Source: a virus. From it: a stretch of 58,419 bases of DNA. Each line of letters opens with the position of its first letter. Position 1 is the stretch's first letter. Where the stretch lies: the IMG/VR virus record IMGVR_UViG_3300045988_147113. The stretch is one strand, 5' to 3'. A model generated the notes under the pieces. That model was given only the letters and a program-made list of their open reading frames with translations. It did not search any database and was not told where the DNA came from. The position numbers and the translations under genes were made by a program. Shown in pieces: positions 6,833 to 57,368 of this stretch.

Positions 6833-6857
6833 AATGATCTCCTTTTATTAAAATATA

Positions 6858-6887
6858 AAGCCAAAGCCGCATGTGCGACTCAGGCTT
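6858..6887 (-). terminator. Conserved terminator hairpin (AAGCCAAAGCCGCATGTGCGACTC.GGCTT family)
   Basis: A hairpin followed on the minus strand by TTATATTT. Same family as 18402, 21758 and 22808. Confidence 0.65.
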
Positions 6888-7126: not shown

Positions 7127-7158
7127 AGTTCTCATTAAAGGACATGTCTGGTTCGCGA
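7127..7158 (-). promoter_or_regulatory. Conserved upstream motif, copy 1 (minus-strand consensus TCGCGAATGAAACATGTCCTTTAATGAGAACC)
   Basis: Minus strand reads TCGCGAACCAGACATGTCCTTTAATGAGAACT. Located upstream of gene 6892..7107. Confidence 0.6.
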
Positions 7159-7217
7159 AATATAGCCAAAAGACAAAGACCAAGCCGCATGTGCGACTCA
7201 GTCTTTTTTGTCAATTA

Positions 7218-7604: not shown

Positions 7605-7626
7605 GATTAACTCCTTAATGTAGTAA

Positions 7627-7657
7627 TAGCTTCATTAAGGGCTATGTTTCTTCCGCG
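7627..7657 (-). promoter_or_regulatory. Conserved upstream motif, copy 2
   Basis: Minus strand reads CGCGGAAGAAACATAGCCCTTAATGAAGCTA. The anti-SD CCTTAATG (7633..7640 on the plus strand as CATTAAGG) pairs perfectly with 7613..7620. Confidence 0.6.
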
Positions 7658-10144: not shown

Positions 10145-10147
10145 GAT

Positions 10148-13123: not shown

Positions 13124-13135
13124 ACCCACTCCTTT

Positions 13136-14612: not shown

Positions 14613-15527
14613 TCAGATCTGATCGTAGACGATGCCGTCGCAGTTGAACTGAAGAAGAATCTCTTCCTTGCCATCCCATGGGCAATCCTTGACGTTATCC
14701 CACGGATCATCGCTGCAACCGAATACGCCGAAGTCGACAATCGAATCGTGATCAGGCGTATTGATCCAACCGAGCACAGCGCCTTCCTTGGTATCAGGAA
14801 GACCGAGCAGACGATAGACATCGTTCAAGAACAGATGCCCGGTGTAATCGAGCTTGTTCTGAGCACGATCCAATGCGGACTTCAACATCACGGTATTCAT
14901 ATCCGGTGATTCGTGATCCCAGATCTGAGAATCCGGTCCGAACCATTTATCGGTCGGACTCAGCGTCTGGACGTTCTGCTCCTTCTTGGTCTCGATGATC
15001 TTGCCTTTGTCGTCGGCGACTTCGACGGTGTCGATGTTCTGATAGAACTTCTTATCGACCTCTTCTCCATACTGGGCCACGACACGTTCGCGGTAATCAC
15101 TAAACTTGGCGCTTACAGCAGCGAATGCCGAAGCAACCGCCGTGTATCGAGTCTGGAGGATGTTGTGTGCCGACAGAATGCAGGCGATGCTCAAGCCGGT
15201 CAGAATAATGGTCGGAGCATAGAGCTTCGCGTAAGCCACGGTGGTGCGCATATAGATAATCTGCTTCGACGAAGCCGCTTCATTGACCGTGAAATCACCA
15301 TCATCGAGCTCGCCGTTGTCCACCATCTTTTCGAGGGTTTCGACGCGGCTCATCTCGGTTTCATGGTTCTTCTTCACGTCATCGATATGCATGGTCGACC
15401 GACATGCGGTGACTGTTGCGGCGACGCCAAGCACGATGCCCGAATATGTCAGGATTTCCGGGCCATGTTTCTTCAGAAAGAGACCGCTCTTAGCTGCGGT
15501 TTTGACCAATGTGCTTTTAATGGACAT
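14613..15527 (-). CDS. Membrane protein, paralog of 17611..18363
   Basis: 304 aa. The two proteins share an architecture: an N-terminal K..G.EILT..G..GV TM hairpin, a second TM segment and a C-terminal globular part with GW...D motifs. Confidence 0.65.
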   Translation of the reverse strand: MSIKSTLVKTAAKSGLFLKKHGPEILTYSGIVLGVAATVTACRSTMHIDDVKKNHETEMSRVETLEKMVDNGELDDGDFTVNEAASSKQIIYMRTTVAYAKLYAPTIILTGLSIACILSAHNILQTRYTAVASAFAAVSAKFSDYRERVVAQYGEEVDKKFYQNIDTVEVADDKGKIIETKKEQNVQTLSPTDKWFGPDSQIWDHESPDMNTVMLKSALDRAQNKLDYTGHLFLNDVYRLLGLPDTKEGAVLGWINTPDHDSIVDFGVFGCSDDPWDNVKDCPWDGKEEILLQFNCDGIVYDQI

Positions 15528-17610: not shown

Positions 17611-18363
17611 TCAAATAAGATTGCGATAGTCAGCCATCGGCGATTCGTGGAAATTCACCACAAGTGCCGGTTTCCCGTCAGGGGTCAGCGCGGTGCTGAA
17701 ACTCAGTTCGATTGGATGATCCGACGTCCAACCGAGATCATCGCCACAACCGATATAGGGCAGATCCAAGGCTTCATAGAAGTCATTTAACGATGCATAC
17801 ATTTCAGCATTCATCTTGTAATTGACGTCATTCTGGGCCTTGCGGATCTTCTCCAGTGTTGACGGGAAGAACCGTCCGCTGAACCCGTCCATGCACAGCA
17901 CATTGCCGTCGCCGATGACCACGGCCGAAGCGTCGTCTTTGGATTTTGCGATTTGATCCTTAGCTACGGCCGCTTCGATTTCCTTGGCTTTCTTTTCGCC
18001 GACGATCTCGTGCACTTTATCGCGATAGATGGTCGCTGCTTCCTGGGCCATGGTATATGCCGAGGAATATGCGATGATCTTATGTGTGGCGGTCTGATGG
18101 GCTCCGACGATCGCAGTAATCGTCGCACCGACAGTCAACGCGGTCGGAATATAACATGGAGCGATTCGTTTGACGAGCTCCTTCTTGTCACATGGCTTGC
18201 CATCGAGCTCCATGCGATACTCCAGCAGACGATCATTCGCCTGAATGGTATCTCGCGATGCCATGATGGCGGTTCCGATCACGCCCACCACTGCCGTGCC
18301 TGTGAGAATCGTATGGGAATTTCTTCCTAGAAATTTTCGTCCTTTGGTGATAATATCGTTCAC
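17611..18363 (-). CDS. Membrane protein, paralog of 14613..15527 (GTG start)
   Basis: GTG at 18363 follows AGAAAGG. The track ATG at 18447 would place the terminator hairpin 18402..18433 inside the gene. Confidence 0.55.
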   Translation of the reverse strand: MNDIITKGRKFLGRNSHTILTGTAVVGVIGTAIMASRDTIQANDRLLEYRMELDGKPCDKKELVKRIAPCYIPTALTVGATITAIVGAHQTATHKIIAYSSAYTMAQEAATIYRDKVHEIVGEKKAKEIEAAVAKDQIAKSKDDASAVVIGDGNVLCMDGFSGRFFPSTLEKIRKAQNDVNYKMNAEMYASLNDFYEALDLPYIGCGDDLGWTSDHPIELSFSTALTPDGKPALVVNFHESPMADYRNLI

Positions 18364-18401
18364 TATAATGGCCTTTCTTATGAACGATCGAAAAAAAATA
18401 T

Positions 18402-18433
18402 AAAGCCAAAGCCGCATGTGCGACTTGGGCTTT
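18402..18433 (-). terminator. Conserved terminator hairpin
   Basis: AAAGCCAAAGCCGCATGTGCGACTTGGGCTTT, followed on the minus strand by ATATTTTTTTT. Confidence 0.7.
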
Positions 18434-18443
18434 ATAGAACAAT

Positions 18444-18701
18444 TCACTCTTGCGAGGAATCTGTGGATTCAGCGTTGGACTTCGATTCATCGGATGAGGA
18501 ATAGTCCCAATCGTCGTCCTCGTCGTCAATATCTTCGGACTTTCCCAGGTGAATCAGCAGTGCGAGTCCTGCGGCGGCAGCGGCTCCAATGGTGATATCC
18601 CTGATACGGTCCTTGTGATCTTTGACGAACTGGACGATCTTGTTGGGCTTCTTCTCCTCGGTCTCGACGACTTCGGTGGTTTCCTTGTTCTGATCTTCCA
18701 T
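18444..18701 (-). CDS. Small acidic protein with one TM segment
   Basis: Starts MEDQNKETTEV at 18701. The TM segment is ITIGAAAAAGLALLI. Preceded by motif copy 3. Confidence 0.6.
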   Translation of the reverse strand: MEDQNKETTEVVETEEKKPNKIVQFVKDHKDRIRDITIGAAAAAGLALLIHLGKSEDIDDEDDDWDYSSSDESKSNAESTDSSQE

Positions 18702-18727: not shown

Positions 18728-18759
18728 TGGTTCTCATTAAGGGGGATGTATGGTTCGCG
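18728..18759 (-). promoter_or_regulatory. Conserved upstream motif, copy 3
   Basis: Minus strand reads CGCGAACCATACATCCCCCTTAATGAGAACCA. Confidence 0.55.
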
Positions 18760-18760
18760 T

Positions 18761-19147
18761 TTAACCGAGCCAGCTCTCTTCTAGTTCGCCGGAAGGATAA
18801 CGTCCTCGTTCGTCGTTATGACGAACGACCTTCATATAAGTGTTCTCGATCTCGGTCTGGGAAAATCCGAAAGCGAATGCGATATTTACCAGCGTCTGGT
18901 ATACGTCGCAGAACTCTTCGAGGGAATGCTGGCGAAGTGCTTCGTAATCGGCTTCCGGATCATTCTGTCCTTTCAGCTGGTCTTTGATCGCTTCCGTCAA
19001 TTCGGCCGCTTCTTCGAGTGTCTTGAGCGGAGCCTGTTTTCCTTCCGGAATCTGATTGCTATCAAAAGCCAATCCGACTGGAAAATGAACTTCCTGTTCT
19101 CCGGTATTCAAATATACGCCGTATTCTTTCGGGTTATCCCAACTCAT
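18761..19147 (-). CDS. Putative MazG-like nucleotide pyrophosphohydrolase
   Basis: 128 aa. SLEEFCDVYQTLVNIAFAFGFSQTEIENTYMKVVRHNDERG fits the MazG EExxD...helix...K..N..R pattern. The call is tentative. Confidence 0.4.
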   Translation of the reverse strand: MSWDNPKEYGVYLNTGEQEVHFPVGLAFDSNQIPEGKQAPLKTLEEAAELTEAIKDQLKGQNDPEADYEALRQHSLEEFCDVYQTLVNIAFAFGFSQTEIENTYMKVVRHNDERGRYPSGELEESWLG

Positions 19148-19314
19148 AATAAACCTCCAAGTTTCTTTTCGATTCGTGACTTCAGAAAACGGCTTTTGAA
19201 ATCGGCACGATTGTCGGGATTACTGAAATATAATGTCGCCATTCCAGCCAATGGAATAATGACTTTCGTGATCCACAGCCGTGCTTCACGATATAATTCG
19301 ATTTTATTTTTCAT
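19144..19314 (-). CDS. Small membrane protein
   Basis: 56 aa from the ATG at 19314 (AAGGAG RBS). The TM segment is VIIPLAGMATLYF. Confidence 0.5.
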   Translation of the reverse strand: MKNKIELYREARLWITKVIIPLAGMATLYFSNPDNRADFKSRFLKSRIEKKLGGLL

Positions 19315-19376
19315 GTTTTGCTCCTTAAAAGTTAAAGCCAAAGCCACATGTGTGAAATGCGGCCTTAGCCTTGAGG

Positions 19377-19562
19377 TCATTTGGTACTGTTTTGTTTCAT
19401 ATATTCAGCAATCATCGGATCTTCCTCCAGAGACTCTTTCTCTTGAGCTTTCTTTCCGATGTGGTAGAGAACGCCGATTCCGGCGATTCCCAATAGCATC
19501 GAAATAGCAAAGTAGATGAGGCTAGAGATGGTGTACTTTCCGAAGAAGGTGCTAAACTTCAT
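19377..19562 (-). CDS. Small membrane protein, paralog of 21511..21690
   Basis: 61 aa, MKFSTFFGKYTISSLIYFAISMLLGIAGIGVLYHIGKKA... The N-terminal two thirds are nearly identical to the paralog at DNA level. Confidence 0.65.
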   Translation of the reverse strand: MKFSTFFGKYTISSLIYFAISMLLGIAGIGVLYHIGKKAQEKESLEEDPMIAEYMKQNSTK

Positions 19563-19586
19563 GATAACTCCTTTATTGATGGTTAA

Positions 19587-19619
19587 TGGTTCTCATTAAA
19601 GGGTGTGTTTCATTTGCGA
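19587..19619 (-). promoter_or_regulatory. Conserved upstream motif, copy 4
   Basis: Minus strand reads TCGCAAATGAAACACACCCTTTAATGAGAACCA. Confidence 0.6.
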
Positions 19620-20081
19620 TTACATATATTCATATTCGGCATTCCCCAACGACCATCGTTCTGCTCCCCACACACGAAATATCCATCGAGTCATGCCGTT
19701 TTCGACAAAGAACAGCGATACACCTTGCGATGATCGTATAATGGCTTGTCTGAAATCGCAGTCGAGCAGCCATGGCGCTATCTGCTCGAGAAAACAAGTA
19801 AATTCATTCTTCGGAGTATGGATATCAAAATCCGCATCGACAATTGTCATATTCGTGGCGTTTCTCACCGCTTCGGTTTGGATGCAGACAGCGCCGTGGT
19901 CATCCACGTACACCCAGAATGATACGCCATTCGGTCGAACATACTGATACCAGCCGCTGATGGCGTTGTGTGGCACTTGATACGACCTATCCATGATCTT
20001 GGGAAAGAGTTCCGATGCCACCTTCTCATTGTGCAACTGCTCGCGTAAATTCGGTGGTTGATGCTTCAATGAAATTAACAT
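19620..20081 (-). CDS. Hypothetical protein
   Basis: 153-aa ORF. Confidence 0.6.
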   Translation of the reverse strand: MLISLKHQPPNLREQLHNEKVASELFPKIMDRSYQVPHNAISGWYQYVRPNGVSFWVYVDDHGAVCIQTEAVRNATNMTIVDADFDIHTPKNEFTCFLEQIAPWLLDCDFRQAIIRSSQGVSLFFVENGMTRWIFRVWGAERWSLGNAEYEYM

Positions 20082-20100
20082 GTTTTCTCCTTAGCTATAA

Positions 20101-20772
20101 TCAGAATTCCGGATCATGATCGAACACCGGTTGTGGTGCTCGTTCATAATTGATTTCTCCGCGATTGAACGCGTTCATATATCGAAGAATCCGATCGACT
20201 TCTTCGGTCACGGTTCGACTGGTATCATATCCCCCTTTCGAGAATTCCTCGAAATTGACCCATCGTTTGCCGTTGGACATCATGTCCATGACATCGGTAA
20301 GCCGTTCTTCGAGTACAGCGAACTGGGCGGCATCGTCGCGTTCCCTACGACTGATTTCCTCCGGATTGTCGCCTCGAAGAAGTAGTCGCTGATATCGAAT
20401 GTTGTCATCGATATGCAGATAGACTCCGAATCGATCGGTGATGCGGTCTTTGATGGTCAAATATCCAGTCGGATCAAGAATGGTCACGGTGTCGTCATCG
20501 GCATTGATATCCTGAAGATTCACGCCGTAACGCCACGTACTGAATATGGTCCGATATTCTCGAACGGCTACCAAATCCGGCAAAGCCGCATCGAATTCGG
20601 CATCGTCAACGAACCAGTAATCGACACCATCCTCTTCGTTATCGCGAGGAGGACGTGTGGTCACCGATACGACTCGCCGAAACCCTCGACGAGCAAGTTC
20701 TTCGGCAATGGACGTCTTACCCGAACCCTGCTTGCCAAGAAGGACAATATGATTGGTATAAGCACCGGTCAT
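20101..20772 (-). CDS. Guanylate kinase-like nucleoside monophosphate kinase
   Basis: P-loop GKQGSGKTS, then SVTTRPPRDNEEDGVDYWFVDDAEF, which matches the Gmk signature TTR.PR..E.DG.DY.FV. Confidence 0.7.
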   Translation of the reverse strand: MTGAYTNHIVLLGKQGSGKTSIAEELARRGFRRVVSVTTRPPRDNEEDGVDYWFVDDAEFDAALPDLVAVREYRTIFSTWRYGVNLQDINADDDTVTILDPTGYLTIKDRITDRFGVYLHIDDNIRYQRLLLRGDNPEEISRRERDDAAQFAVLEERLTDVMDMMSNGKRWVNFEEFSKGGYDTSRTVTEEVDRILRYMNAFNRGEINYERAPQPVFDHDPEF

Positions 20773-20773
20773 G

Positions 20774-21031
20774 TTACCACTTCCTTACCTGGAAATTGGC
20801 ATAGAATATATCGTTGATCGCGTCAAGTCCGTCCATGATCTGAACATCGTACTCATCCCAGGTTTCGATCGGAATATCAATGCGACGCTCATATAGTCTG
20901 CAAGGAATATCACGTCCAAGCATCCAGGCATAGAACATATTCAGAGCGATTTTTGGTCCTGAAATATGAGGCGATACCTTATTATGAAATTTGCGAGTGA
21001 ATTTAAGTCGTCCGACTGGTCTTCTCGCCAT
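20774..21031 (-). CDS. Hypothetical protein
   Basis: 85-aa ORF. Confidence 0.5.
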   Translation of the reverse strand: MARRPVGRLKFTRKFHNKVSPHISGPKIALNMFYAWMLGRDIPCRLYERRIDIPIETWDEYDVQIMDGLDAINDIFYANFQVRKW

Positions 21032-21086
21032 GTTTTTACTCCTAAAATAAAAAGCGAATGGCCAAGTGTCATTCGCCAGTAATGTG

Positions 21087-21353
21087 TCAGTCGTGGTAGG
21101 CTTGGTCCGACAATGCTTTCAGATAACGTCGTACGACGTCAAGCTGTAGACTTGCGGTTCCGAGCTTGTCCATGACGATGCACACAGCATGGCGTTTGCG
21201 TTCTTGGCCATTCGGCAGTTGATCATAATATCCTTCGTTGAGACGACGGATCACGAGATCAACATTGTCCTCTTCCTGTTCTTTGTCCCAAAGTTCCTTG
21301 ACGCGGTCCTTTGCGGTGCTGAACAGATTCTTGGATGTTGTCTTGATATCCAT
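21087..21353 (-). CDS. Hypothetical protein
   Basis: 88-aa ORF preceded by motif copy 5. Confidence 0.6.
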   Translation of the reverse strand: MDIKTTSKNLFSTAKDRVKELWDKEQEEDNVDLVIRRLNEGYYDQLPNGQERKRHAVCIVMDKLGTASLQLDVVRRYLKALSDQAYHD

Positions 21354-21374
21354 GTTTCTCCTTTTTGTGGATTA

Positions 21375-21406
21375 TTCGGTCATTAAAGGCCATGGATGAA
21401 TCGCGG
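21375..21406 (-). promoter_or_regulatory. Conserved upstream motif, copy 5
   Basis: Minus strand reads CCGCGATTCATCCATGGCCTTTAATGACCGAA. Confidence 0.55.
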
Positions 21407-21510
21407 CACCATGGAAACGAATGCAGCGATGACAATAAACATAATATGCTCTTGACATCGAAAAAAGCCAAAGCCGCATGTGTGAAATGCGGCCTTAGCC
21501 TTGGATGTCA

Positions 21511-21690
21511 TTAGTCATTATTTAGATTCATGTCATCAGCAGTGATCGGATTCTCCTCGTCATCCTTCTCTTCAGCTTTCTTTCCGATGTGGTAGAGAAC
21601 GCCGATTCCGGCGATTCCCAATAGCATCGAAAATGCAGTGTAGATAAGGGTGCAGATGGTGTACTTTCCGAAGAAGGTGCTAAACTTCAT
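21511..21690 (-). CDS. Small membrane protein, paralog of 19377..19562 (absent from the ORF track)
   Basis: 59 aa, MKFSTFFGKYTICTLIYTAFSMLLGIAGIGVLYHIGKKAEEKDDEENPITADDMNLNND. It has the same RBS and leader as the paralog. Confidence 0.6.
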   Translation of the reverse strand: MKFSTFFGKYTICTLIYTAFSMLLGIAGIGVLYHIGKKAEEKDDEENPITADDMNLNND

Positions 21691-21714
21691 GATAACTCCT
21701 TTATTGATGGTTAA

Positions 21715-21747
21715 TGGTTCTCATTAAAGGGTGTGTTTCATTCGCGA
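21715..21747 (-). promoter_or_regulatory. Conserved upstream motif, copy 6
   Basis: Minus strand reads TCGCGAATGAAACACACCCTTTAATGAGAACCA. Confidence 0.6.
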
Positions 21748-21757
21748 CTGCAAATAT

Positions 21758-21789
21758 AAAGCCAAAGCCGCATGTGCGACTCTGGCTTT
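21758..21789 (-). terminator. Conserved terminator hairpin
   Basis: AAAGCCAAAGCCGCATGTGCGACTCTGGCTTT, followed on the minus strand by ATATTT. Confidence 0.7.
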
Positions 21790-21813
21790 TGACGTAATCC
21801 TATAGATCACATG

Positions 21814-22209
21814 TCAGATCTTCGGTTTGGGCAGAAACCCGAGGCTTCTCGAACTGATGGTGTGATTTGTTTCGAATCCCAGCAGGATGACGATTCCAGC
21901 GAGCGAGACCCCGGCTTTCACGACGGTTTCGATGAGGCTCTTCCGATGGTCATTATAGTCGTTCTTGACGGCGACCAGCGACTTCAGCGATTCCAGATTG
22001 TGGTTCGTCATTTCATCATGACGCTCCACAACCGAACTCGTGACGTTGCCGTCGCCATCAAGAGTGTCTCTTGTGACTTCGGAAGTCCTTGTCAAATCGT
22101 CGCTCAAATCGGATTCGTTCTCCGGATTCATCTCCTCTTTGAGACGATCCAAATATGCATCGATCTGTTCATCGAACTTCTGATTAATGCTCTTCGATTG
22201 ATTGGACAT
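21814..22209 (-). CDS. Hypothetical protein with a C-terminal TM segment
   Basis: 131 aa with an acidic N-terminal part and the TM segment VKAGVSLAGIVILLGF. Confidence 0.6.
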   Translation of the reverse strand: MSNQSKSINQKFDEQIDAYLDRLKEEMNPENESDLSDDLTRTSEVTRDTLDGDGNVTSSVVERHDEMTNHNLESLKSLVAVKNDYNDHRKSLIETVVKAGVSLAGIVILLGFETNHTISSRSLGFLPKPKI

Positions 22210-22227
22210 GTTTGCTCCTTTCGGTTA

Positions 22228-22259
22228 TGTTGTCATTAAAGGCGATGATTCATGCGCGA
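22228..22259 (-). promoter_or_regulatory. Conserved upstream motif, copy 7
   Basis: Minus strand reads TCGCGCATGAATCATCGCCTTTAATGACAACA. Confidence 0.55.
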
Positions 22260-22381
22260 AAAAAAATATAAACGCCATGTCCTGTCTCAGTGGTGGTACG
22301 TGACGTTACAGCTATACTCAACATATCGGATAAATGAGAAGCCGTGTGATTAACGGCTTGTCATTATTAGGATTGATCAAG

Positions 22382-22486
22382 CTAGAACAATCCGCAGACG
22401 ATGAGGACAATCGCAATAACGAATATAGCGATAATGGCGATTGCGCCCCAGACGACGGTCTTGAAAATAGTCTTGATGAGGTCCAT
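22382..22486 (-). CDS. 34-aa hydrophobic mini-protein
   Basis: MDLIKTIFKTVVWGAIAIIAIFVIAIVLIVCGLF, with an AAGGAG RBS and motif copy 8 upstream. Confidence 0.45.
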   Translation of the reverse strand: MDLIKTIFKTVVWGAIAIIAIFVIAIVLIVCGLF

Positions 22487-22508
22487 AATAACTCCTTTGG
22501 TTGATATA

Positions 22509-22542
22509 TAGCTTCTCATTAAGGACCATGATTAATTCGCGA
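22509..22542 (-). promoter_or_regulatory. Conserved upstream motif, copy 8
   Basis: Minus strand reads TCGCGAATTAATCATGGTCCTTAATGAGAAGCTA. Confidence 0.55.
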
Positions 22543-22653
22543 ATACATCATCAAGCTCCTTGCCCAAAAATATAAACCATACGCATCATCGGACAAGAAG
22601 CAAAGCAGATGGCTTTGCTTCTATTGATCATTCCTGATTAGAGGAAATGGTGT

Positions 22654-22740
22654 TCAGTGTTCTTGCGTCAAAGCGACCGCATAGTACTCTCCAGCGAGAG
22701 CAGCGATTGCGATGGCAATGGCGGAAATTCCAGCGAACAT
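22654..22740 (-). CDS. 28-aa hydrophobic mini-protein
   Basis: MFAGISAIAIAIAALAGEYYAVALTQEH, with an AAAGGAG RBS and motif copy 9 upstream. Confidence 0.4.
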   Translation of the reverse strand: MFAGISAIAIAIAALAGEYYAVALTQEH

Positions 22741-22763
22741 AGTTTTCTCCTTTAATGATGGTA

Positions 22764-22796
22764 TGGTTCTCATTAAAGGACATGTTTCATTCGCGA
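22764..22796 (-). promoter_or_regulatory. Conserved upstream motif, copy 9
   Basis: Minus strand reads TCGCGAATGAAACATGTCCTTTAATGAGAACCA. A perfect 10-bp stem forms between 22749..22758 and 22770..22779 and includes the SD. Confidence 0.6.
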
Positions 22797-22807
22797 CTGC
22801 AAATATA

Positions 22808-22837
22808 AAGCCAAAGCCGCATGTGCGACTCTGGCTT
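22808..22837 (-). terminator. Conserved terminator hairpin
   Basis: AAGCCAAAGCCGCATGTGCGACTCTGGCTT, followed on the minus strand by TATATTT. Confidence 0.7.
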
Positions 22838-22842
22838 GATGA

Positions 22843-23097
22843 TCATTCATCAATATACATTTTTTCAGCGATCTTTTTTGCGATTTGATCTCGACGTCCG
22901 TGTCCCCACGTAGTGATGGTTATACACAAGGTTGGATGATCGTAAAATGGATACGTTACTATGGCATGGTTATAGCTCTTTACGTATGGTAAAGAGCCGA
23001 CCACGTTAAGAATCGTGTTCACTTGATCTTGGTCCTTGCAATAGCCATCGGCAGTGAAAGACTCGGTTCGGTTCAAAATCTTGTCGATGATAAGCAT
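22843..23097 (-). CDS. Hypothetical protein
   Basis: 84 aa from the ATG at 23097 (AAAGGAG RBS). Confidence 0.55.
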   Translation of the reverse strand: MLIIDKILNRTESFTADGYCKDQDQVNTILNVVGSLPYVKSYNHAIVTYPFYDHPTLCITITTWGHGRRDQIAKKIAEKMYIDE

Positions 23098-23120
23098 GAT
23101 TACTCCTTTGATATTGTTGA

Positions 23121-23153
23121 ATTTCTTCAATAAAGGACATGTATCATGCGCGA
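23121..23153 (-). promoter_or_regulatory. Conserved upstream motif, copy 10
   Basis: Minus strand reads TCGCGCATGATACATGTCCTTTATTGAAGAAAT. Confidence 0.5.
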
Positions 23154-23161
23154 AAAAAAAT

Positions 23162-23193
23162 AAAGAGCAAGCCGCACATGCGGCTTGCTCTTT
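23162..23193 (-). terminator. Terminator hairpin
   Basis: AAAGAGCAAGCCGCACATGCGGCTTGCTCTTT is a perfect palindromic stem with a T-run on the minus strand. Confidence 0.7.
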
Positions 23194-23403
23194 TCAGACG
23201 AGAGTGATGGTCTTCAGATAATCTGCGAATGCACTCATGTCTTCCAGGTTGGTACTGACCATGATCACCCGAAGCTTCTTTGTCTTGGTCGTAAGAATAC
23301 CGCTCTCCGTTTCCGGATCGCAGTGGTTCTTGATCCACTGAACAAGCTTCAGGCAGGTGTGCTGGCTGTACTGTTGGCTGACATAAGTAAACGTATCGTT
23401 CAT
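23194..23403 (-). CDS. Hypothetical protein
   Basis: 69 aa from the ATG at 23403 (AAGGAG RBS). Confidence 0.55.
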   Translation of the reverse strand: MNDTFTYVSQQYSQHTCLKLVQWIKNHCDPETESGILTTKTKKLRVIMVSTNLEDMSAFADYLKTITLV

Positions 23404-23424
23404 GATTGCTCCTTTATGATAGAT

Positions 23425-23457
23425 TCTCTTGTCATTAAAGGCCATGTACGATTCGCG
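23425..23457 (-). promoter_or_regulatory. Conserved upstream motif, copy 11
   Basis: Minus strand reads CGCGAATCGTACATGGCCTTTAATGACAAGAGA. Confidence 0.55.
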
Positions 23458-23469
23458 TCGAGACAAAAT

Positions 23470-23502
23470 ATAAGAGCCCATGCGCGCGGCATAGGCTCTT
23501 AT
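23470..23502 (-). terminator. Terminator hairpin (ATAAGAGCCCATGCG....GCATAGGCTCTTAT family)
   Basis: Near-identical to the hairpin at 23847..23879. Confidence 0.65.
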
Positions 23503-23508
23503 ATGATA

Positions 23509-23805
23509 TCATTCGGCATCGCTCTCGGTGGTGTCGTCCGGATCGGTCGAAGTGTTCCACTGATCCTTGGCACGCTTCAGCAGCTCATTGATGCCCCAGC
23601 TCAGTGCCATGCAGATACCGGAAACCGTGGACAGACCGGCCGTGGCGGCGTCCATGCCGTGGACGTGACCGAGCTGCGTGCAGACACCGGCGATCACGAT
23701 CAGCAGCACACTGAGTGCAGGCAGATATCGACGCGCGGCCTTGACGAGGCCGTCGTAACCTGAATCGGTGAGAAATGACGTATTCTGATTGGCGTGTTCG
23801 GCCAT
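23509..23805 (-). CDS. Putative holin (two TM segments, charged C-terminus)
   Basis: 98 aa. The TM segments are LPALSVLLIVIAGVCTQLG and LSTVSGICMALSWGI, and the tail is acidic. It lies downstream of the tail-fibre genes. Confidence 0.5.
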   Translation of the reverse strand: MAEHANQNTSFLTDSGYDGLVKAARRYLPALSVLLIVIAGVCTQLGHVHGMDAATAGLSTVSGICMALSWGINELLKRAKDQWNTSTDPDDTTESDAE

Positions 23806-23846
23806 AATATATGGTCCTTTCTTCTATGGTTTGCGTGAGAAAAAAC

Positions 23847-23879
23847 ATAAGAGCCCATGCGTGGCGCATAGGCTCTTAT
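23847..23879 (-). terminator. Terminator hairpin
   Basis: ATAAGAGCCCATGCGTGGCGCATAGGCTCTTAT. Confidence 0.65.
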
Positions 23880-23882
23880 ACT

Positions 23883-24176
23883 TTATTCTGAAATTAATGC
23901 CTCCATGATGGCTTTAAATTTCCTGTGTGGAGTCATGAGGTATTTCAATGTCTTAACGATGGATCTACTAATAAACCGAAGGGTATACTTCTGCTCGAAT
24001 ATCATGCATCTTACCAGTCCGCGTTTTTCGACGACTACGCATGGCATGCAAATATCGCTGTCGTACGCGACACAGGTGAGCGCCAAATATCCAAGATATG
24101 TTATACCCCTGATTATGCATATATCGTTCTTGAATTGTACTTCATAGTTGCCACAAGGGTTCTTGCTGTTTTTCAT
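23883..24176 (-). CDS. Hypothetical Cys-rich protein
   Basis: 97 aa from the ATG at 24176. Confidence 0.5.
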   Translation of the reverse strand: MKNSKNPCGNYEVQFKNDICIIRGITYLGYLALTCVAYDSDICMPCVVVEKRGLVRCMIFEQKYTLRFISRSIVKTLKYLMTPHRKFKAIMEALISE

Positions 24177-24188
24177 AATGGCTCCTTT

Positions 24189-24214
24189 CATAAAGGGCCA
24201 TGTATGTCACGCGA
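24189..24214 (-). promoter_or_regulatory. Conserved upstream motif, copy 12 (degenerate)
   Basis: Minus strand reads TCGCGTGACATACATGGCCCTTTATG. Confidence 0.45.
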
Positions 24215-53518: not shown

Positions 53519-56320
53519 TCACTTCCCAAGATTCTCAGACAATGTTGAAGTCGAAATACCCAAAGCATCTGCGACTTCTGCATTGGTATAGCCAGCATTC
53601 ATGAGCGATTTCGCTCTAGCAATAGCCCAAGAAGGAAGCTTTTCTTTCTTTCTCGGAGTAGCTAGTTCTCGAACTCGATCAGGATCGGCGTATTGCAGTA
53701 TCTCACGAAGACGATTTGCTGAGATGGCCCTTGCTTGAATTGCCTCCCAGTCTCGATCCGTAAGATCCACCCTCTTGGATTGAATACCAACAATAGCTCT
53801 AGCTCGTTTGAGTTCCTTTTGTCCAGCTTTCTTCAGATCTTCCTTATCATAGTCAGGATGATCCTCTTTGATGGCACGAAGTCTCTCATTGGCTATGACC
53901 TGAGCCTTTCGTTCCAGGGGCTGGTTCTTCTTGGCTTCGTTGAGCTGGGCTACCATCTTCTTAACTTCGGGGGCGTATTGTTTTCTAGCCTGGGGGTCCA
54001 CTTTGAAAGGCTCTGCCTGGAGGTAGGCCTTTCGAGATTGGTTACCCAAATCTTTCATGCCGTTAGAGTAACGGGCATAAATAGATTCCATCAAAGTCCC
54101 AGAAGAAAGTTCCCTAGCATCCTTGGCCTCGGCGAGTTTCGTAGACTTCGTAATATTGGGGACTGTTTCATAACGAACAACCTCACCCTTCGAATTACGA
54201 ACCGCTCGATGATGAGATTCACCGGTAAGTTCATAACGTTTCTCACCAGTCTCAGGATCAATCGGGCCGCCATTCTTCATGGATCGGGGCTTGCGCTCCG
54301 GAAGACGAACTACACCCTTAGCCCTTGAAACAAGAGTAGAAGCGCCACCACTTTGGAACTTTTCCTTGAGGGCCTTAATGTTATTATCCGTCTCGGATTG
54401 TTTCCAATCAAGCTTATGCTTTTCGGAATCAATCACCACCATGGAATGACGAACCGCACGAACCAATTCATCAGGACGAGCGCCTTGGATTGTCATATCG
54501 GTAATCAAATTGGATACGATACCCATCTGACGCTGCTTCATCTCAGGAGAAATCAAACGCTTGTCATTGGGCTTGATGTCCTTTGGCAAGGCGTATGATT
54601 CCTTGGGATCAAATCCTTGAAGCCCCTTCAATGGAGCAGCGTTCTTGATCTGACCGCTTTTATTTGGAATTACCTGTACGGTATCTCCATCAAAATCGGC
54701 ACCCGATAGACGTTCGGCGACCTTGGAATTAATACCCACTGCATCCTTGGCATTGCCGATATATTTGAGACCTTCCTTGTTGCGATTGTTCACCACAAGT
54801 TCAGGCATCTCAAATCGACCAGCGTGCGGGTATCGAACCAGCATCACCTTCTCGCCATTTCGGTAGTTCGGAGCATAAATCTCACGATCGCTCAACGAAT
54901 TGATCGGAAGGATCACATGAGACTTCTGACGGGGAACAGCGGCAGCCTTCAAAGAAACGGCAGCAGAATCGCATTCGTCGGCAAACTCTTGAAGAAGCTT
55001 TTGCTTGACGACTGGATTGGTCAACGATTTGATTTCTTTAAGATTCAATCGAGAACGATCCAGAGCAATGCCAAGTTGCTGAGAAGCAAACGAAGGTTCC
55101 TGCTTGGAAAGCATCTGAGATGGTAGATTCTTAGACCAACCATCCCAATCACCTTCGGTATTCAAAATATTCAAAGACGATTGTTTTCTCTTACCGGTTT
55201 TTGGATCCACATAAGTAGGTTGCAAACGAACGGCTGCCTTGAATGGGTTCTCCGTATCGATGACTTCTGTTCCGTTGGCAGACTTGATAGTCTGCATCTT
55301 CTTCAGAACATCCATCTTCGGAGTGCCCTTGTGTTTGTTGGTACAGAAAGCCACATCAACACCAGGTGGGAACGACCGAGGATCACCAACGAGTGCCATG
55401 CCTTTGAGGTAGTGGGTACCGTCAACGGCAATTCGAACCTGAGCGTAACGTTTACCATCCGGCAACTGAAGATCAGGAGCCTTGGGATTGATCAGCATCA
55501 CACCGTCTCGTTCGACGCCTTTGAAACCAGCAAACTTGTCTTCAGCATAAACGATCTTAACTCGCTTACTGTCGATTGAGACTGGAGGCTTCAGTGCTCC
55601 GGAAAATCCTGCTGGAATGTCATCGAGGTTCTTCGCCAAAGAAGCAATACGCTCACGATGAGCGTACAGACCTTCCGGGCCTGAAACCTTGACACCGGGA
55701 GCGGTCAACAGCTTGAGGGTCGTCTTCTGGCCAGGACCAGTGCCGAGCTGATTCTCATACATGTAGTGGACTTCGTAACCATTATCGACCGCCATCTGCA
55801 CTGCGACCTTGAGCTTATCGGCAGAAGTTCCCAGATATAATTCTGAGGATTTACCGATATCAAGACCACCGTTCTTCGGAACCGAAGCCATAAGCTTTTC
55901 TGAGATGTCGGTAGCGATGTCCTTACGAACTTCACGACCATCTTTGAGCCAGCCACGGACTGTCGATTCAGAACGTCCAAGCTCTTTGCCGATGGCTGTG
56001 GCACCCCAACCTTGCTTCTGAAGATTCAGCGCTCGGTTGCGAGTATAGTTCTCGGCTTCATTCCATGCCATGGAATATCGTGCTCGGTATTCGGTTGTAG
56101 TCATGCCAAGCGCTCGTGCGATCTCTGTTGAATTGCTGATCCCTTGCTCTTTGAGCCGAGCCACTTGACCCAGCAAGCCATTGGCTCTGGTCAAGGAATC
56201 CTCATCGCCAGAACCCCATTTGTACCGTCCGGAATGCGGAGTGGCTCCTTGATGTGGGATACCGTAATGCTCGAAGTCATACAACGACTCGTCATCACCG
56301 GAATATGACTCTTCAGCCAT
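53519..56320 (-). CDS. Putative single-subunit two-barrel (YonO-like) DNA-dependent RNA polymerase with terminal HTH modules
   Basis: 933 aa.
- VMLVRYPHAGRFEM...GINSKVAERLSGADFDGDTVQVI (ADFDGD at 54683..54700) mirrors the beta-prime DPBB motifs R.P.lH and NADFDGD.
- The upstream DKFAGFKGV resembles the beta DPBB motif GDKmAGRHGnKGV.
- HTH-like segments lie at both termini. Confidence 0.6.
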   Translation of the reverse strand: MAEESYSGDDESLYDFEHYGIPHQGATPHSGRYKWGSGDEDSLTRANGLLGQVARLKEQGISNSTEIARALGMTTTEYRARYSMAWNEAENYTRNRALNLQKQGWGATAIGKELGRSESTVRGWLKDGREVRKDIATDISEKLMASVPKNGGLDIGKSSELYLGTSADKLKVAVQMAVDNGYEVHYMYENQLGTGPGQKTTLKLLTAPGVKVSGPEGLYAHRERIASLAKNLDDIPAGFSGALKPPVSIDSKRVKIVYAEDKFAGFKGVERDGVMLINPKAPDLQLPDGKRYAQVRIAVDGTHYLKGMALVGDPRSFPPGVDVAFCTNKHKGTPKMDVLKKMQTIKSANGTEVIDTENPFKAAVRLQPTYVDPKTGKRKQSSLNILNTEGDWDGWSKNLPSQMLSKQEPSFASQQLGIALDRSRLNLKEIKSLTNPVVKQKLLQEFADECDSAAVSLKAAAVPRQKSHVILPINSLSDREIYAPNYRNGEKVMLVRYPHAGRFEMPELVVNNRNKEGLKYIGNAKDAVGINSKVAERLSGADFDGDTVQVIPNKSGQIKNAAPLKGLQGFDPKESYALPKDIKPNDKRLISPEMKQRQMGIVSNLITDMTIQGARPDELVRAVRHSMVVIDSEKHKLDWKQSETDNNIKALKEKFQSGGASTLVSRAKGVVRLPERKPRSMKNGGPIDPETGEKRYELTGESHHRAVRNSKGEVVRYETVPNITKSTKLAEAKDARELSSGTLMESIYARYSNGMKDLGNQSRKAYLQAEPFKVDPQARKQYAPEVKKMVAQLNEAKKNQPLERKAQVIANERLRAIKEDHPDYDKEDLKKAGQKELKRARAIVGIQSKRVDLTDRDWEAIQARAISANRLREILQYADPDRVRELATPRKKEKLPSWAIARAKSLMNAGYTNAEVADALGISTSTLSENLGK

Positions 56321-57258: not shown

Positions 57259-57368
57259 GAAAAAACCTCCAACCGTAAAATACGGGAGATACCTGTAGTT
57301 ATATGTATATTCTATCCATTATGGGAAATGTACGAGACGATGTTTGTGCACAAATGTGCACAAATGAT

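What the first reader, a model, noticed from the sequence alone, without database searches (positions are those of the whole stretch)
18728..24214. At least 12 copies of a 33-nt upstream motif containing an anti-Shine-Dalgarno element with compensatory covariation
**Motif.** A strongly conserved motif lies upstream of 12 small genes. On the coding strand its consensus is TCGCGAATGAAACATGTCCTTTAATGAGAACC.

**Copy positions.**
- Main cluster: 18728, 19587, 21375, 21715, 22228, 22509, 22764, 23121, 23425 and 24189.
- Second cluster: 7127 and 7627.

**Not a sigma-70/sigma-A promoter.** No hexamer pair has 16-18-nt spacing, and the CGCG...ACATG...CCTTTAATGA blocks are far better conserved than normal promoters.

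**Anti-SD pairing.** The CCTTT(AATGA) part is complementary to the AAAGG(AG) SD about 20 nt downstream. At 22749..22779 this forms a perfect 10-bp stem. At 7613..7640 both arms have lost one A (CCTTAATG/CATTAAGG), which preserves pairing and so represents compensatory change.

**Interpretation.** The motif is a candidate phage-specific promoter, possibly for the encoded RNAP-like protein. It is fused to an SD-sequestering or 5'-stabilising hairpin.
Basis: seen in the sequence. Interest (0 to 1): 0.78.

Follow-up and report, generated by a model that had tools for sequence, protein, structure and literature searches.

The report
Promoter motif of phage-encoded RNA polymerase
Twelve copies of a 26-32-nt sequence in front of small early genes of this phage are most likely the promoters read by the phage's own single-chain RNA polymerase, an element shared by a very large group of phages of Gram-positive bacteria, while the proposed ribosome-site-masking hairpin is not supported.

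Summary
The motif is real. There are exactly 12 copies, all on the coding (-) strand. They align without gaps over 26 nt (CGCG-N7-CAT-N2-CCTTTAATGA) and end 23-32 nt (once 11 nt) before the start codons of small ORFan genes. About half lie directly behind terminator hairpins.

The window is a siphovirus genome related to Bifidobacterium phage BitterVaud1. Its 933-aa protein has an aDFDGD catalytic loop, a QDE-1 / Thermus-phage-gp62-like two-barrel fold and terminal HTH domains, so it is a YonO-like single-subunit RNA polymerase.

Homologous multi-copy motifs in the same register occur in seven other polymerase-bearing lineages infecting Bifidobacterium, Faecalibacterium, Lactococcus, Arthrobacter and Streptomyces. 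A profile built only from those lineages recovers the window's copies. In loci chosen by the polymerase alone, it finds 33 hits, all co-oriented and upstream of the polymerase operon.

The geometry is not sigma-A-like. There is no -35 element, position 20 is T where sigma-A needs A, and some copies have an SD starting 3 nt after the hexamer.

I therefore read the motif as the phage polymerase's promoter (confidence about 0.6).

The anti-SD covariation claim fails. Within-genome permutation gives p=0.13, pairing is no better than shuffled, and CCTTT is absent in most lineages.

The parts
24188..24213 (-). Motif copy 1 (CGCGTGACATACATGGCCCTTTATGA). Short-leader type: the SD AAGGAG starts right after the motif and the ATG is 11 nt downstream, opening a 97-aa ORF (24176-23883).
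23432..23457 (-). Motif copy 2. It lies directly behind the terminator hairpin at 23504-23468, and the ATG is 28 nt downstream (69-aa ORF).
23127..23152 (-). Motif copy 3. It lies behind the terminator at 23193-23162, and the ATG is 29 nt downstream (84-aa ORF).
22770..22795 (-). It lies behind the terminator at 22837-22808. Its leader can form the perfect 10-bp stem with the SD region.
22516..22541 (-). Motif copy 5. The ATG is 29 nt downstream, opening a 34-aa ORF.
22233..22258 (-). Motif copy 6. It is preceded by a T-run, and the ATG is 23 nt downstream (131-aa ORF).
21721..21746 (-). Motif copy 7. Its terminator+motif segment duplicates that of copy 4, and its motif+leader+gene 5' end duplicates that of copy 9.
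21380..21405 (-). Motif copy 8. The ATG is 26 nt downstream (88-aa ORF).
19593..19618 (-). Motif copy 9 (CGCA variant). It is part of the 195-nt duplication with copy 7.
18734..18759 (-). Motif copy 10 (CCCTTAATGA variant). An 85-aa ORF follows.
7632..7657 (-). Motif copy 11, in the replication module downstream of the DNA polymerase genes. Its leader forms the 8-bp CCTTAATG/CATTAAGG stem. A 128-aa ORF follows.
7132..7157 (-). Motif copy 12. It lies behind the terminator at 7206-7175, and a 71-aa ORF follows.
53519..56320 (-). Gene for the 933-aa single-subunit two-barrel RNA polymerase homologue (YonO/QDE-1-like). It has HTH domains at about aa 55-130 and 895-931 and the catalytic loop GADFDGD at aa 540-546. 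It is the proposed reader of the motif.
57316..57341 (-). Possible 13th, divergent copy (ATCGTCTCGTACATTTCCCATAATGG) in the gap upstream of the 99-aa ORF / exonuclease / RNAP gene set. Bona fide copies occupy this position in other lineages.
22808..22837 (-). Representative of the intrinsic-terminator-like hairpin family that directly precedes motif copies. Other members lie at 23468-23504, 23162-23193, 21759-21788 and 7175-7206.

Best explanation
**What it is.** The 26-32-nt element (TT-CGCG-aAnnAnA-CAT-nn-CC-TTTAAT-GA-gaa) is the promoter used by the phage's own single-chain, two-barrel (YonO-like) RNA polymerase, the 933-aa product of 53519-56320.

**Layout in the genome.** The element drives short transcription units for small early ORFan genes, plus two units in the replication module. 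Many of these units are separated from the preceding unit by an intrinsic-terminator-like hairpin.

**How it probably works (inferred).**
- The polymerase's fused helix-turn-helix domains, one of them sigma-70-region-4-like, read the double-stranded upstream blocks (CGCG at positions 1-4, ACA at positions 11-13).
- The AT-rich hexamer at positions 19-24 is melted.
- RNA synthesis starts at or just after the conserved T24-G25-A26, in the purine-rich GA(G/A)A.
- This gives leaders of about 25-32 nt, or about 10 nt in short-leader copies, that carry the SD.

**Shown versus inferred.**
- Shown: the motif, its placement, its homology across lineages and its linkage to the polymerase gene.
- Inferred: that the polymerase, rather than another factor, reads the motif; the position of the start site; and a possible delivery of the polymerase in the virion.

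**The CCTTT/AAAGG complementarity.** This is mostly a by-product of a pyrimidine block lying next to a purine-rich SD.
For: **(1) The motif is a discrete, oriented, gene-proximal signal.**
- There are 12 copies scoring 34-58 bits and nothing else above -7, all on the coding strand.
- The distance from motif end to ATG is 23-32 nt in 11 of 12 copies.
- Terminator hairpins lie immediately upstream of at least 5 copies. Any transcript of the downstream gene must therefore start between terminator and ATG, where the motif is the only conserved sequence.

**(2) The phage encodes one RNA polymerase and no sigma factor.**
- The 933-aa protein matches phrog_4291 at E=0 and Pfam RdRP weakly, and has HTH domains at both ends.
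- It carries the only DFDGD motif in the window.
- The AlphaFold2 model (pLDDT 80.5) matches QDE-1 (E 1e-8), Thermus phage P74 gp62 RNAP (E 5e-7) and RDR2, and then weakly matches the large subunits of multisubunit RNAPs.
- The 65 other proteins scanned against Pfam give no sigma factor or RNAP subunit. The larger proteins scanned separately also give none.
- Many family members have precomputed Sigma70_r4 hits.

**(3) The motif is inherited with the polymerase.** Homologous multi-copy families occur in the same register, with C12 and T24 invariant and A13 and T21 >=90% conserved:
- BitterVaud1, 7 copies
- FP_oengus, at least 12 copies, and Scap1, 6 copies
- P078, 9 copies, and Mudcat, 7 copies
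- Caterpillar, 8 copies
- Phage 1706, at least 10 copies

The hosts span Actinobacteria and Firmicutes.

**(4) Independent profile test.**
- A profile built from those lineages only ranks the window's copies as hits 1-11 and 13.
- In 56 loci selected by the RNAP protein alone (39-46% identity, plus two 98-99% window-like loci that gave no hit), it gives 33 hits. All 33 are on the RNAP strand and lie 0.9-1.3 kb upstream of the RNAP start where the full 2-kb flank is held.

**(5) The geometry is not sigma-A-like.**
- There is no -35 element at 16-18 nt spacing and no TGn extension.
- Position 20 is T in all 12 window copies, where sigma-A needs A(-11). The same holds in the FP_oengus and TTTTAT lineages.
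- Thirty non-redundant copies have an SD starting at positions 27-29. Eight of these lie right behind a terminator, so the start site must be at or before about position 27.
- In the RNAP-operon copies, a hairpin begins exactly at position 27.

**(6) Precedent.** In Thermus phage P23-45, strongly conserved motifs at -30..+1 define the promoters of its two single-subunit two-barrel RNAPs (PMC10770324).
Against: - There are no start-site, binding or activity data for any member of this polymerase family. Its polymerase activity is itself inferred from sequence and fold.
- In six of eight lineages the hexamer at positions 19-24 is TATAAT or TATAGT, a perfect match to the minimal sigma-A -10 box (TAnnnT). 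Host RNAP plus a phage factor therefore remains possible there.
- The polymerase gene is itself preceded by a motif copy in many lineages. If the polymerase reads the motif, it must arrive with the virion or be seeded by host transcription.
- Virion association rests only on 'structural protein' annotations of the 1706 and ReqiPoco6 homologues. I could not read the source papers.
- By analogy, YonO of SPbeta transcribes late genes from a single promoter, not early genes (PMC5467207).
- No polymerase-lacking relatives were available as negative controls.
Confidence: 0.6

Rival explanations
1. The motif is an early or middle promoter used by the host RNA polymerase with sigma-A. The hexamer at positions 19-24 acts as the -10 box, and a phage protein bound to the conserved upstream blocks (CGCG at about -30, ACA at about -19) replaces the missing -35 contact. 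This would work like T4 MotA/AsiA sigma appropriation. The phage polymerase would then transcribe something else, for example the late genes, as YonO does.
For: - The hexamer is TATAAT or TATAGT in BitterVaud1, Mudcat, Caterpillar, P078, 1706 and Scap1.
- The CGCG block lies where a -30 activator box would lie (my reading of the register).
- The polymerase operon itself carries the motif. This is natural if host RNAP expresses the polymerase as an early gene.
- YonO transcribes late genes (PMC5467207).
- No motif lies in front of the structural genes.
Against: - In this window all 12 copies have T at the position equivalent to A(-11). The same is true of FP_oengus and the many TTTTAT-type copies. 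By established knowledge of sigma-70 -10 recognition, such hexamers are essentially inactive.
- There is no TGn extension.
- In short-leader copies behind terminators the SD occupies positions 27-32, exactly where a sigma-A start site (positions 29-33) would fall.
- No candidate activator other than the HTH-bearing polymerase was found.
Confidence: 0.17
2. The functional core is an RNA hairpin in which the motif's CCTTTAATGA pairs with the downstream (TCATT)AAAGG. This would sequester the SD or stabilise the 5' end, and would be maintained by compensatory change.
For: - Four of 11 independent leaders fold better than shuffles: z -2.8, -4.7, -2.2 and -3.65 for copies 24213, 22795, 21746 and 7657.
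- There is a small cognate advantage in 87 metagenomic copies, -6.30 versus -5.78 kcal/mol, p=0.0008.
- AAAGGAG is the SD form in 10 of 11 motif genes.
Against: - Seven of 11 leaders show no excess structure.
- The cognate advantage disappears under within-genome permutation, p=0.13.
- The pair count equals the shuffled value, the inner five pairs are only 30-52% paired, and a +1 slide is as good.
- CCTTT is not conserved in BitterVaud1, Mudcat, Caterpillar, P078, 1706 or Scap1.
- The loop length varies from 3 to about 17 nt.
- If the start site is at about positions 25-27, the 5' arm is not in the RNA.
Confidence: 0.06
3. The repeats are primarily recombination 'boundary sequences' that promote shuffling of small gene cassettes. 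This was proposed for the 32-bp repeat of cluster AU Arthrobacter phages.
For: - The cluster AU repeat is the same element.
- The window shows cassette mosaicism whose breakpoints fall at motif or terminator: 19435-19629 versus 21563-21757, and 21714-21788 versus 22763-22837.
Against: Recombination substrates need not have any of the following properties, all of which are seen here:
- Strict strand orientation.
- A fixed distance to start codons.
- Position directly after terminators.
- Invariant single bases (C12, T24; A13 and T21 >=90%) kept across phyla at low overall identity.

Shuffling is better seen as a side effect of repeated promoters, as described for T4-type promoter/stem-loop cassettes (from my own knowledge, not checked here).
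Confidence: 0.05
4. The motif is an operator for a phage DNA-binding regulator, with repressor or 'stoperator'-like multi-copy oriented sites, rather than a promoter.
For: - Multi-copy, single-orientation, intergenic 13-14-bp stoperators exist in cluster A/CA actinophages (PMC13313380).
- TTCGCGAA is an 8-bp palindrome in the window's consensus (sequence).
Against: - The conserved span is 26-32 nt and asymmetric.
- The palindrome is not kept in other lineages.
- Pfam scans of the window's proteins listed no repressor or integrase; only one weak HTH_3 hit was found.
- Copies follow terminators, so a promoter is still needed at each site, and no other conserved sequence is available there.
Confidence: 0.07

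Closest known systems
Promoters of the single-subunit two-barrel RNA polymerases of Thermus phage P23-45 (TMP-fused virion RNAP gp96 and non-virion RNAP gp64; Chaban et al. 2024, PMC10770324)
   Same: - The phage encodes a QDE-1/YonO-type two-barrel RNAP. The window's model hits the P74 gp62 structure 8f5m.
- A strongly conserved motif of about 30 nt lies in many copies upstream of pre-early or early genes, within -30..+1.
- The argument from co-occurrence of motif and polymerase is the same.
   Different: - The polymerase lineage is different, and it has fused N- and C-terminal HTH domains.
- The motif sequence is different.
- The hosts are Gram-positive mesophiles.
- The window has only one RNAP and an ordinary tape-measure protein.
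- No start-site or ChIP data exist here.
YonO of Bacillus prophage SPbeta (Forrest et al. 2017, PMC5467207)
   Same: - It is a single-chain homologue of multisubunit RNAPs with the DxDGD loop.
- It is phage-encoded and independent of host RNAP subunits.
- The family link was made by Koert et al. (bioRxiv 10.1101/842583).
   Different: - YonO transcribes one long late operon from a single start site.
- Its promoter is explicitly unknown.
- Here there is a multi-copy candidate promoter in front of early-type genes.
- The polymerase here carries HTH domains, which could make it self-sufficient.
32-bp intergenic 'boundary' repeat of cluster AU Arthrobacter phages (Giantsbane preprint, 10.1101/2020.01.10.891226)
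   Same: It is the same element in the same register. I verified this in phage Caterpillar: CTCGCrAGAATTACAynGCCTATAATGAy in 8 copies, with terminators upstream.
   Different: - It was interpreted there as a recombination signal.
- It was not linked to the polymerase.
- It was not recognised outside cluster AU.
T7-type phage promoters (own knowledge, not tested here)
   Same: - It is a contiguous conserved element of about 23-30 nt in many co-oriented copies.
- An AT-rich melting box lies immediately before a purine-rich initiation region. Scap1's TTATAGTGAGA even resembles T7's TATAGGGAGA.
   Different: - The polymerase fold is unrelated: right-hand Pol I-like for T7 versus two-barrel here.
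- The resemblance is functional only.
T4 middle promoters (MotA box at -30 plus sigma-70 -10; own knowledge)
   Same: A conserved box about 30 nt upstream plus a TAnnnT hexamer without a -35 element is the architecture that the sigma-A rival requires.
   Different: - The window's hexamer lacks A(-11).
- The SD placement implies a start site too close to the hexamer.

Membership tests
Promoter of a phage-encoded single-subunit RNA polymerase | The genome encodes its own RNA polymerase. | tested here: met
   - phrog_4291 at E=0.
- GADFDGD catalytic loop.
- AlphaFold2 model matches QDE-1, P74 gp62 and RDR2.

. Enzymatic activity was not tested.
Promoter of a phage-encoded single-subunit RNA polymerase | A long (over 20 nt) conserved motif occurs in multiple copies, co-oriented with the genes and lying between genes. 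| tested here: met
   - 12 copies, all on the - strand, with about 48 bits of information.
- Motif ends 11-32 nt before the start codons.

Promoter of a phage-encoded single-subunit RNA polymerase | The motif co-occurs phylogenetically with the polymerase. | tested here: met
   - Eight lineages carry both.
- A profile built without window sequences finds the window's copies.
- 33 of 33 co-oriented hits occur in RNAP-selected loci.
- No polymerase-lacking relatives were available as negative controls.
Promoter of a phage-encoded single-subunit RNA polymerase | Primary transcripts start at a fixed position relative to the motif, and the polymerase initiates specifically in vitro. | not testable with these tools
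   Only an indirect bound is available: the start site lies at or before about position 27, from SD placement behind terminators and from hairpins starting at position 27.
Sigma-70/sigma-A promoter | -35 and -10 hexamers separated by 16-18 nt, or a TGn-extended -10. | tested here: not met
   - The consensus scan finds no such pair at the motif sites.
- TCGCGA lies 13-14 nt from the hexamer.
- Positions 16-17 are not TG.
Sigma-70/sigma-A promoter | A at -11 and T at -7 of the -10 hexamer. | tested here: not met
   The window hexamer is TTTAAT, CTTAAT, TTTATT or CTTTAT, with T at position 20 in 12 of 12 copies. The feature is met in six other lineages (TATAAT/TATAGT).
SD-sequestering or 5' RNA hairpin (structured cis-regulatory leader) | The helix is conserved across copies and supported by covariation. 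| tested here: not met
   - 63.6% paired versus 63.0% shuffled; 2 pairs with double changes versus 2.3 expected; the +1 slide is equal.
- Within-genome permutation gives p=0.13.
- 7 of 11 leaders are unstructured.
Known RNA families (Rfam 15) | A match at the gathering score. | tested here: not met
   There are no matches in the window. The only match in the 18-24.6 kb scan is an unrelated sRNA model at E=0.14.
YonO-like / QDE-1-like two-barrel RNA polymerases (for the 933-aa protein) | A DxDGD Mg-binding loop in a double-psi beta-barrel, and overall fold similarity. | tested here: met
   - DFDGD at aa 542-546 is invariant in 30 homologues.
- Foldseek probability is 1.0 to QDE-1 and P74 gp62, although TM-scores are only about 0.3-0.4.
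- Pfam RdRP scores E=0.006, below the curated cut-off.

The most novel reading that the evidence does not exclude
The motif and the 933-aa protein together form a self-contained transcription system made of one protein and one promoter. A sigma-independent two-barrel RNA polymerase would recognise a promoter of about 27 bp through its own fused HTH domains, one of them sigma-region-4-like. It would be carried in the virion and so start the early programme, including its own gene, without host RNAP. The system would be shared by thousands of siphoviruses of Actinobacteria and Firmicutes. That would give the first defined promoter for the YonO-like branch, and a natural example of promoter recognition built into a single-chain relative of cellular RNAPs.
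Probability: 0.33. Interest if true: 0.82.

Novelty: new variant of a known kind. Interest (0 to 1): 0.62.

Why it matters
**Open question addressed.** How single-chain relatives of cellular RNA polymerases (YonO-like enzymes) find promoters is an open question. The YonO paper states that its promoter, and any need for factors, are unknown.

**What this finding offers.**
- The polymerase family is very large, with at least 7,868 protein clusters.
- It comes with a sharply defined candidate promoter conserved from Lactococcus to Streptomyces phages.
- The polymerase carries built-in DNA-binding domains.
- Several cultured phage-host pairs are available: Arthrobacter, Lactococcus, Streptomyces and Bifidobacterium asteroides.

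**What becomes testable.**
- Start-site mapping under rifampicin.
- In-vitro initiation on a 30-bp template.
- Swapping HTH domains against motif variants (CGCG versus TTTA at positions 1-4; A versus T at position 20).

**If confirmed.**
- It could yield a compact orthogonal expression system for Gram-positive bacteria.
- It would reinterpret the 'boundary sequences' reported in actinophage genomes.

**Negative result.** The anti-SD idea should not be propagated as a covariation-supported structure.

Tried and rejected
- **Megablast of 18-25 kb against GenBank phages:** no match. Relatives were found only at protein level.
- **Sequence search of the polymerase against PDB:** only spurious RecA-fusion hits to the HTH region. 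Fold search was needed.
- **The 993-aa ORF as the polymerase:** rejected. It is a D5-type primase/DNA polymerase.
- **A second RNAP fused to the 2,564-aa tape-measure protein, as in P23-45:** rejected. It has only TMP_3 and a coiled-coil hit, and no second DFDGD exists in any frame.
- **A phage sigma factor:** none found.
- **Sigma-70-like promoters:** none coincide with the motif sites in 6-26 kb, and they are not enriched over shuffles in 44-58 kb, with 15 found versus 22 expected.
- **Virion association of the polymerase:** the Summer et al. 2011 paper on ReqiPepy6/Poco6 could not be read. Only GenBank annotations support this point.
- **Literature searches for a described promoter in this phage group:** found only the cluster AU 'boundary repeat' preprint.
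- **An apparent motif after the terminator at 18402-18432:** on inspection it is just the SD plus GTG start of the DUF6353 gene.
- **The across-genome cognate/non-cognate hairpin test (p=0.0008):** rejected as evidence, because within-genome permutation removes it.
- **Script access:** loci L003-L005 were not available to scripts, so their copies were taken from the repeat-finder output.

Full report

Yes, for the motif. Every one of the 12 listed positions holds a copy on the - strand. The copies align without a single gap over 26 nt, from CGCG to TGA.

A 42-nt weight matrix built from them splits the window cleanly. The 12 sites score 34-58 bits. The best other site on either strand scores below -7. 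The summed information is about 48 bits. "At least 12" is therefore exactly 12 clear copies. One divergent candidate lies at 57316-57341.

All predicted genes of the window lie on the - strand, so the motif is always co-oriented with transcription. The motif ends 23-32 nt before the start codon in 11 cases and 11 nt before it in one case. The downstream genes are small ORFans of 28-131 aa.

Strong terminator-like hairpins with T-runs lie directly upstream of the copies at 23457, 23152, 22795, 21746 and 7157.

The copies are not all independent. Regions 19435-19629 and 21563-21757 are a 93% duplication covering motif, leader and gene start. Regions 21714-21788 and 22763-22837 are a 96% duplication covering terminator and motif.

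**2. What is the genome, and what is the "RNAP-like protein"?**

The window is a siphovirus genome, circularly permuted and reverse-complemented relative to the usual map. It encodes:
- TerL, portal and protease-capsid proteins, a 2,564-aa tape measure, Dit and a ReqiPepy6-Gp37-like tail protein.
- A lysin and a primase/DNA polymerase split by an HNH gene.
- A helicase and an exonuclease.

The 933-aa ORF (53519-56320, -) has the following properties:
- It matches phrog_4291 ("RNA-dependent RNA polymerase") at E=0.
- It matches Pfam RdRP weakly.
- It has HTH domains at both ends.
- It contains GADFDGD, the only DFDGD in any frame of the window.
- This loop is invariant in 30 homologues.

An AlphaFold2 model (pLDDT 80.5, pTM 0.69) matches QDE-1 at E about 1e-8. 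It matches the Thermus phage P74 gp62 RNAP at E 5e-7 and plant RDR2, and then weakly the largest subunits of multisubunit RNAPs.

Koert et al. (bioRxiv 10.1101/842583) had already noted this protein. They described it as a YonO/crAss-like RdRP homologue with terminal HTH domains. They called it the signature of an "actinobacteriophage supercluster" plus the Lactococcus 1706-like and Faecalibacterium phages. They say nothing about promoters.

The closest isolate is Bifidobacterium phage BitterVaud1, at 50.7% identity and syntenic. The family has at least 7,868 protein clusters, many with precomputed Sigma70_r4 hits.

No sigma factor, second RNAP or RNAP subunit was found in the window. The 993-aa ORF at 10148-13129 is a primase/polymerase, not an RNAP.

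**3. The motif travels with the polymerase.**

De novo repeat searches in other polymerase-bearing phages each returned a multi-copy intergenic family that aligns gaplessly with the window's motif:

| Phage | Motif family | Copies |
|---|---|---|
| BitterVaud1 | TTCGCGAnnnnnAACATCGCTTATAATGAA | 7 |
| Faecalibacterium FP_oengus | GACGCGAAAAAtnCAgnnnCCTTTATGG | at least 12 |
| Streptomyces Scap1 | TCGCAAGtTTtaCAtGCnTTATAGTGAGACCCC | 6 |
| Lactococcus P078 | TTTAwsTTTTACATACCCTATAATGA | 9 |
| Arthrobacter Mudcat | CGCGTAAAtTACAyGGGCTATAATGAGAACC | 7 |
| Arthrobacter Caterpillar | CTCGCrAGAATTACAynGCCTATAATGAy | 8 |
| Lactococcus 1706 | CACAwGTTTTACATAyACTATAGTAGA | at least 10 |

In the 56-sequence alignment of these non-window copies, C12 and T24 are invariant, and A13 and T21 are at least 90% conserved. 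FP_oengus and Caterpillar also have a repeated terminator family just upstream of the motif.

A sequence profile built from those 56 copies only, with no window sequence, was run over the window with filters off. It ranks the window's copies as hits 1-11 and 13, all on the - strand and in full register.

The same profile was run on 56 IMG/VR loci fetched solely by the RNAP protein. Most have RNAPs 39-46% identical to the window's; two are 98-99% window-like and gave no hit. The profile gives 33 hits. All 33 are on the RNAP's strand, and they lie about 0.9-1.3 kb upstream of its start where the full 2-kb flank is held. None lies elsewhere.

A pattern scan of IMG/VR returned 119 loci. Within these, 267 PWM-positive copies always share one strand per locus. 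Several of those contigs are the ones that carry the 98-99% identical RNAP.

**4. Is it a sigma-A promoter after all?**

The hexamer at positions 19-24 is TATAAT or TATAGT in six lineages, which looks like a -10 box. Four observations argue against that reading:
- No -35-like hexamer lies 16-18 nt upstream in any lineage, and there is no TGn.
- All 12 window copies have T where sigma-A needs the flipped-out A(-11). So do FP_oengus and the many TTTTAT-type copies.
- Thirty non-redundant copies have a canonical SD beginning at motif positions 27-29, followed by an ORF of at least 40 codons. Eight of these lie directly behind a terminator hairpin and T-run. For such genes a promoter-initiated mRNA carries its SD only if the start site is at or before about position 27. 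That is at most 3 nt after the hexamer, whereas a sigma-A start would fall at positions 29-33.
- In the copies upstream of the RNAP operon, a hairpin (AGAGAGAAGG...CCTTCTCTC plus a T-run) begins exactly at position 27. This is as expected if transcripts begin just before it.

The conserved CGCG and ACA blocks have no counterpart in sigma-A promoters, yet they persist in phages of hosts from two phyla. I therefore rank the host-RNAP-plus-activator model second (0.17), not zero.

**5. Mechanism proposed (confidence about 0.6).**

The element is the promoter of the phage's HTH-fused two-barrel RNAP.
- The upstream blocks are read as duplex DNA by the fused HTH domains.
- The AT-rich hexamer melts.
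- Initiation occurs at about positions 24-27, in the purine-rich GA(G/A)A.
- Short units are closed by intrinsic terminators.

This parallels Thermus phage P23-45. There, strongly conserved motifs at -30..+1 mark the promoters of two single-subunit two-barrel RNAPs, and motif presence tracks polymerase presence among relatives (PMC10770324).

The polymerase operon itself carries a motif copy in many lineages. The enzyme therefore probably arrives with the virion, or is seeded by host transcription. The homologues in phages 1706 and ReqiPoco6 are annotated "structural protein". That fits virion delivery, but I could not read the underlying papers, so this step is a lead and not a result.

The structural genes have no motif. 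The 44-58 kb stretch, which holds the head genes and the RNAP operon, shows no enrichment of sigma-70-like sites. How the structural genes are transcribed is open. One possibility is read-through around the circularised genome, since all genes point in one direction.

**6. The anti-SD hairpin.**

The complementarity is literally present, because CCTTT faces the AAAGG of the SD. As a general, selected structure, however, it fails every test I could apply:
- Seven of 11 independent window leaders fold no better than dinucleotide shuffles.
- Window cognate versus non-cognate duplex energies are -8.05 versus -7.21 kcal/mol, p=0.053. This is driven by 2-3 copies, one of which is a self-overlap.
- In 87 non-redundant metagenomic copies there is a 0.5 kcal/mol cognate advantage, p=0.0008. 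Permuting partners only within each genome removes it: -6.63 versus -6.48, p=0.13. It is therefore a lineage effect.
- The formal pair count on 87 constructs gives 63.6% paired versus 63.0 +/- 0.5% shuffled. Covariation is 0.120 versus 0.109 (22 of 500 shuffles reach it). There are 2 pairs with double changes versus 2.3 expected. The inner five pairs are only 30-52% paired. A register slid by +1 does as well, at 62.1%.
- The CCTTT block is not conserved in six of the seven other lineages.
- The inferred start site would leave it out of the RNA.

A role in a few individual copies, or in read-through transcripts, cannot be excluded.

**7. Comparison with what is known, and novelty.**

- The polymerase family is known from sequence analysis.
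- The repeat was seen once, in cluster AU Arthrobacter phages. There it was read as a recombination "boundary sequence". I confirmed that it is the same element.
- YonO's promoter is explicitly unknown.
- The P23-45 work gives the precedent for motif-defined promoters of two-barrel phage RNAPs.

In the searchable literature I found no description of three things:
- The link between this motif and this polymerase.
- The motif's conservation across Actinobacteria and Firmicutes phages.
- Its presence upstream of the polymerase operon.

I class the finding as a new variant of a known kind: a phage-polymerase-specific promoter, here for an uncharacterised HTH-fused YonO-like polymerase.

No Rfam family covers the sites.

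**8. Verdict.**

| Item | Verdict |
|---|---|
| Observation | Partly confirmed: motif yes, covariation no |
| Interpretation | Partly supported: promoter for the phage polymerase likely, SD-sequestering hairpin not supported |
| Interest | 0.62 |

The finding gives a concrete, testable handle on promoter recognition by single-chain relatives of cellular RNAPs, in culturable systems. It rests entirely on comparative sequence evidence.

Noticed in passing
window 8592-13129 (-): The primase/DNA-polymerase gene (phrog_4210, about 1,300 aa in relatives) is split into a 993-aa N-terminal ORF (10148-13129) and a 362-aa C-terminal ORF (8592-9680). A free-standing HNH endonuclease gene (9677-10144) lies between them.
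   Followed up: partly
window ~52975-53210: Two tandem copies of a non-coding unit of about 118 bp (AATAACAACAGCAACAATGATGAATGATGTGATTCATATGAGC...CATTCGTTGTCG) lie after the RNAP gene and one small ORF. At this point the map wraps from the right end to the left end, so this may be the genome terminus, a packaging site or an origin.
   Followed up: no
window 6838-6887, 7175-7206, 18402-18432, 21759-21788, 22808-22837 (-): A conserved terminator-hairpin family (AAGCCnnAGTCGCACATGCGGCTTnGnCTT plus a T-run) recurs between early genes. FP_oengus and Caterpillar have analogous repeated terminator families upstream of their motif copies.
   Followed up: partly
L170:1011-1085, L172:765-840, L156:700-775, L163:324-400, L165:1014-1090 (and others): In diverse relatives, the motif copy upstream of the nuclease-RNAP operon is followed, starting exactly at motif position 27, by a purine-rich hairpin and T-run (AGAGAGAAGG-loop-CCTTCTCTC-TTTT). 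This could be a promoter-proximal terminator or attenuator, a small RNA, or a 5' stabiliser controlling polymerase expression.
   Followed up: no
window 57316-57341 (-): A divergent motif-like site (ATCGTCTCGTACATTTCCCATAATGG) lies in the 110-nt gap upstream of the 99-aa ORF / exonuclease / RNAP genes. It keeps ACAT, CC and ATAATG but lacks CGCG. The pan-lineage profile scores it only weakly (7.3 bits).
   Followed up: partly
window 19435-19629 and 21563-21757; 21714-21788 and 22763-22837: Recent duplications have breakpoints at the motif or terminator. One carries motif + leader + the first ~125 nt of a gene, and the other carries terminator + motif. This suggests that promoter/terminator cassettes mediate shuffling of early genes.
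   Followed up: partly
window 14613-15527 and 17611-18447 (-): Two paralogous DUF6353 proteins (E 1e-54 and 2e-61) are encoded in the early/replication arm. Their function is unknown.
   Followed up: no
L007 (Lactococcus phage 1706) 32083-35172; L006 (ReqiPoco6) 2806-5526: The RNAP homologues of these two phages are annotated 'structural protein' in GenBank. This hints that the polymerase is a virion component.
   Followed up: partly
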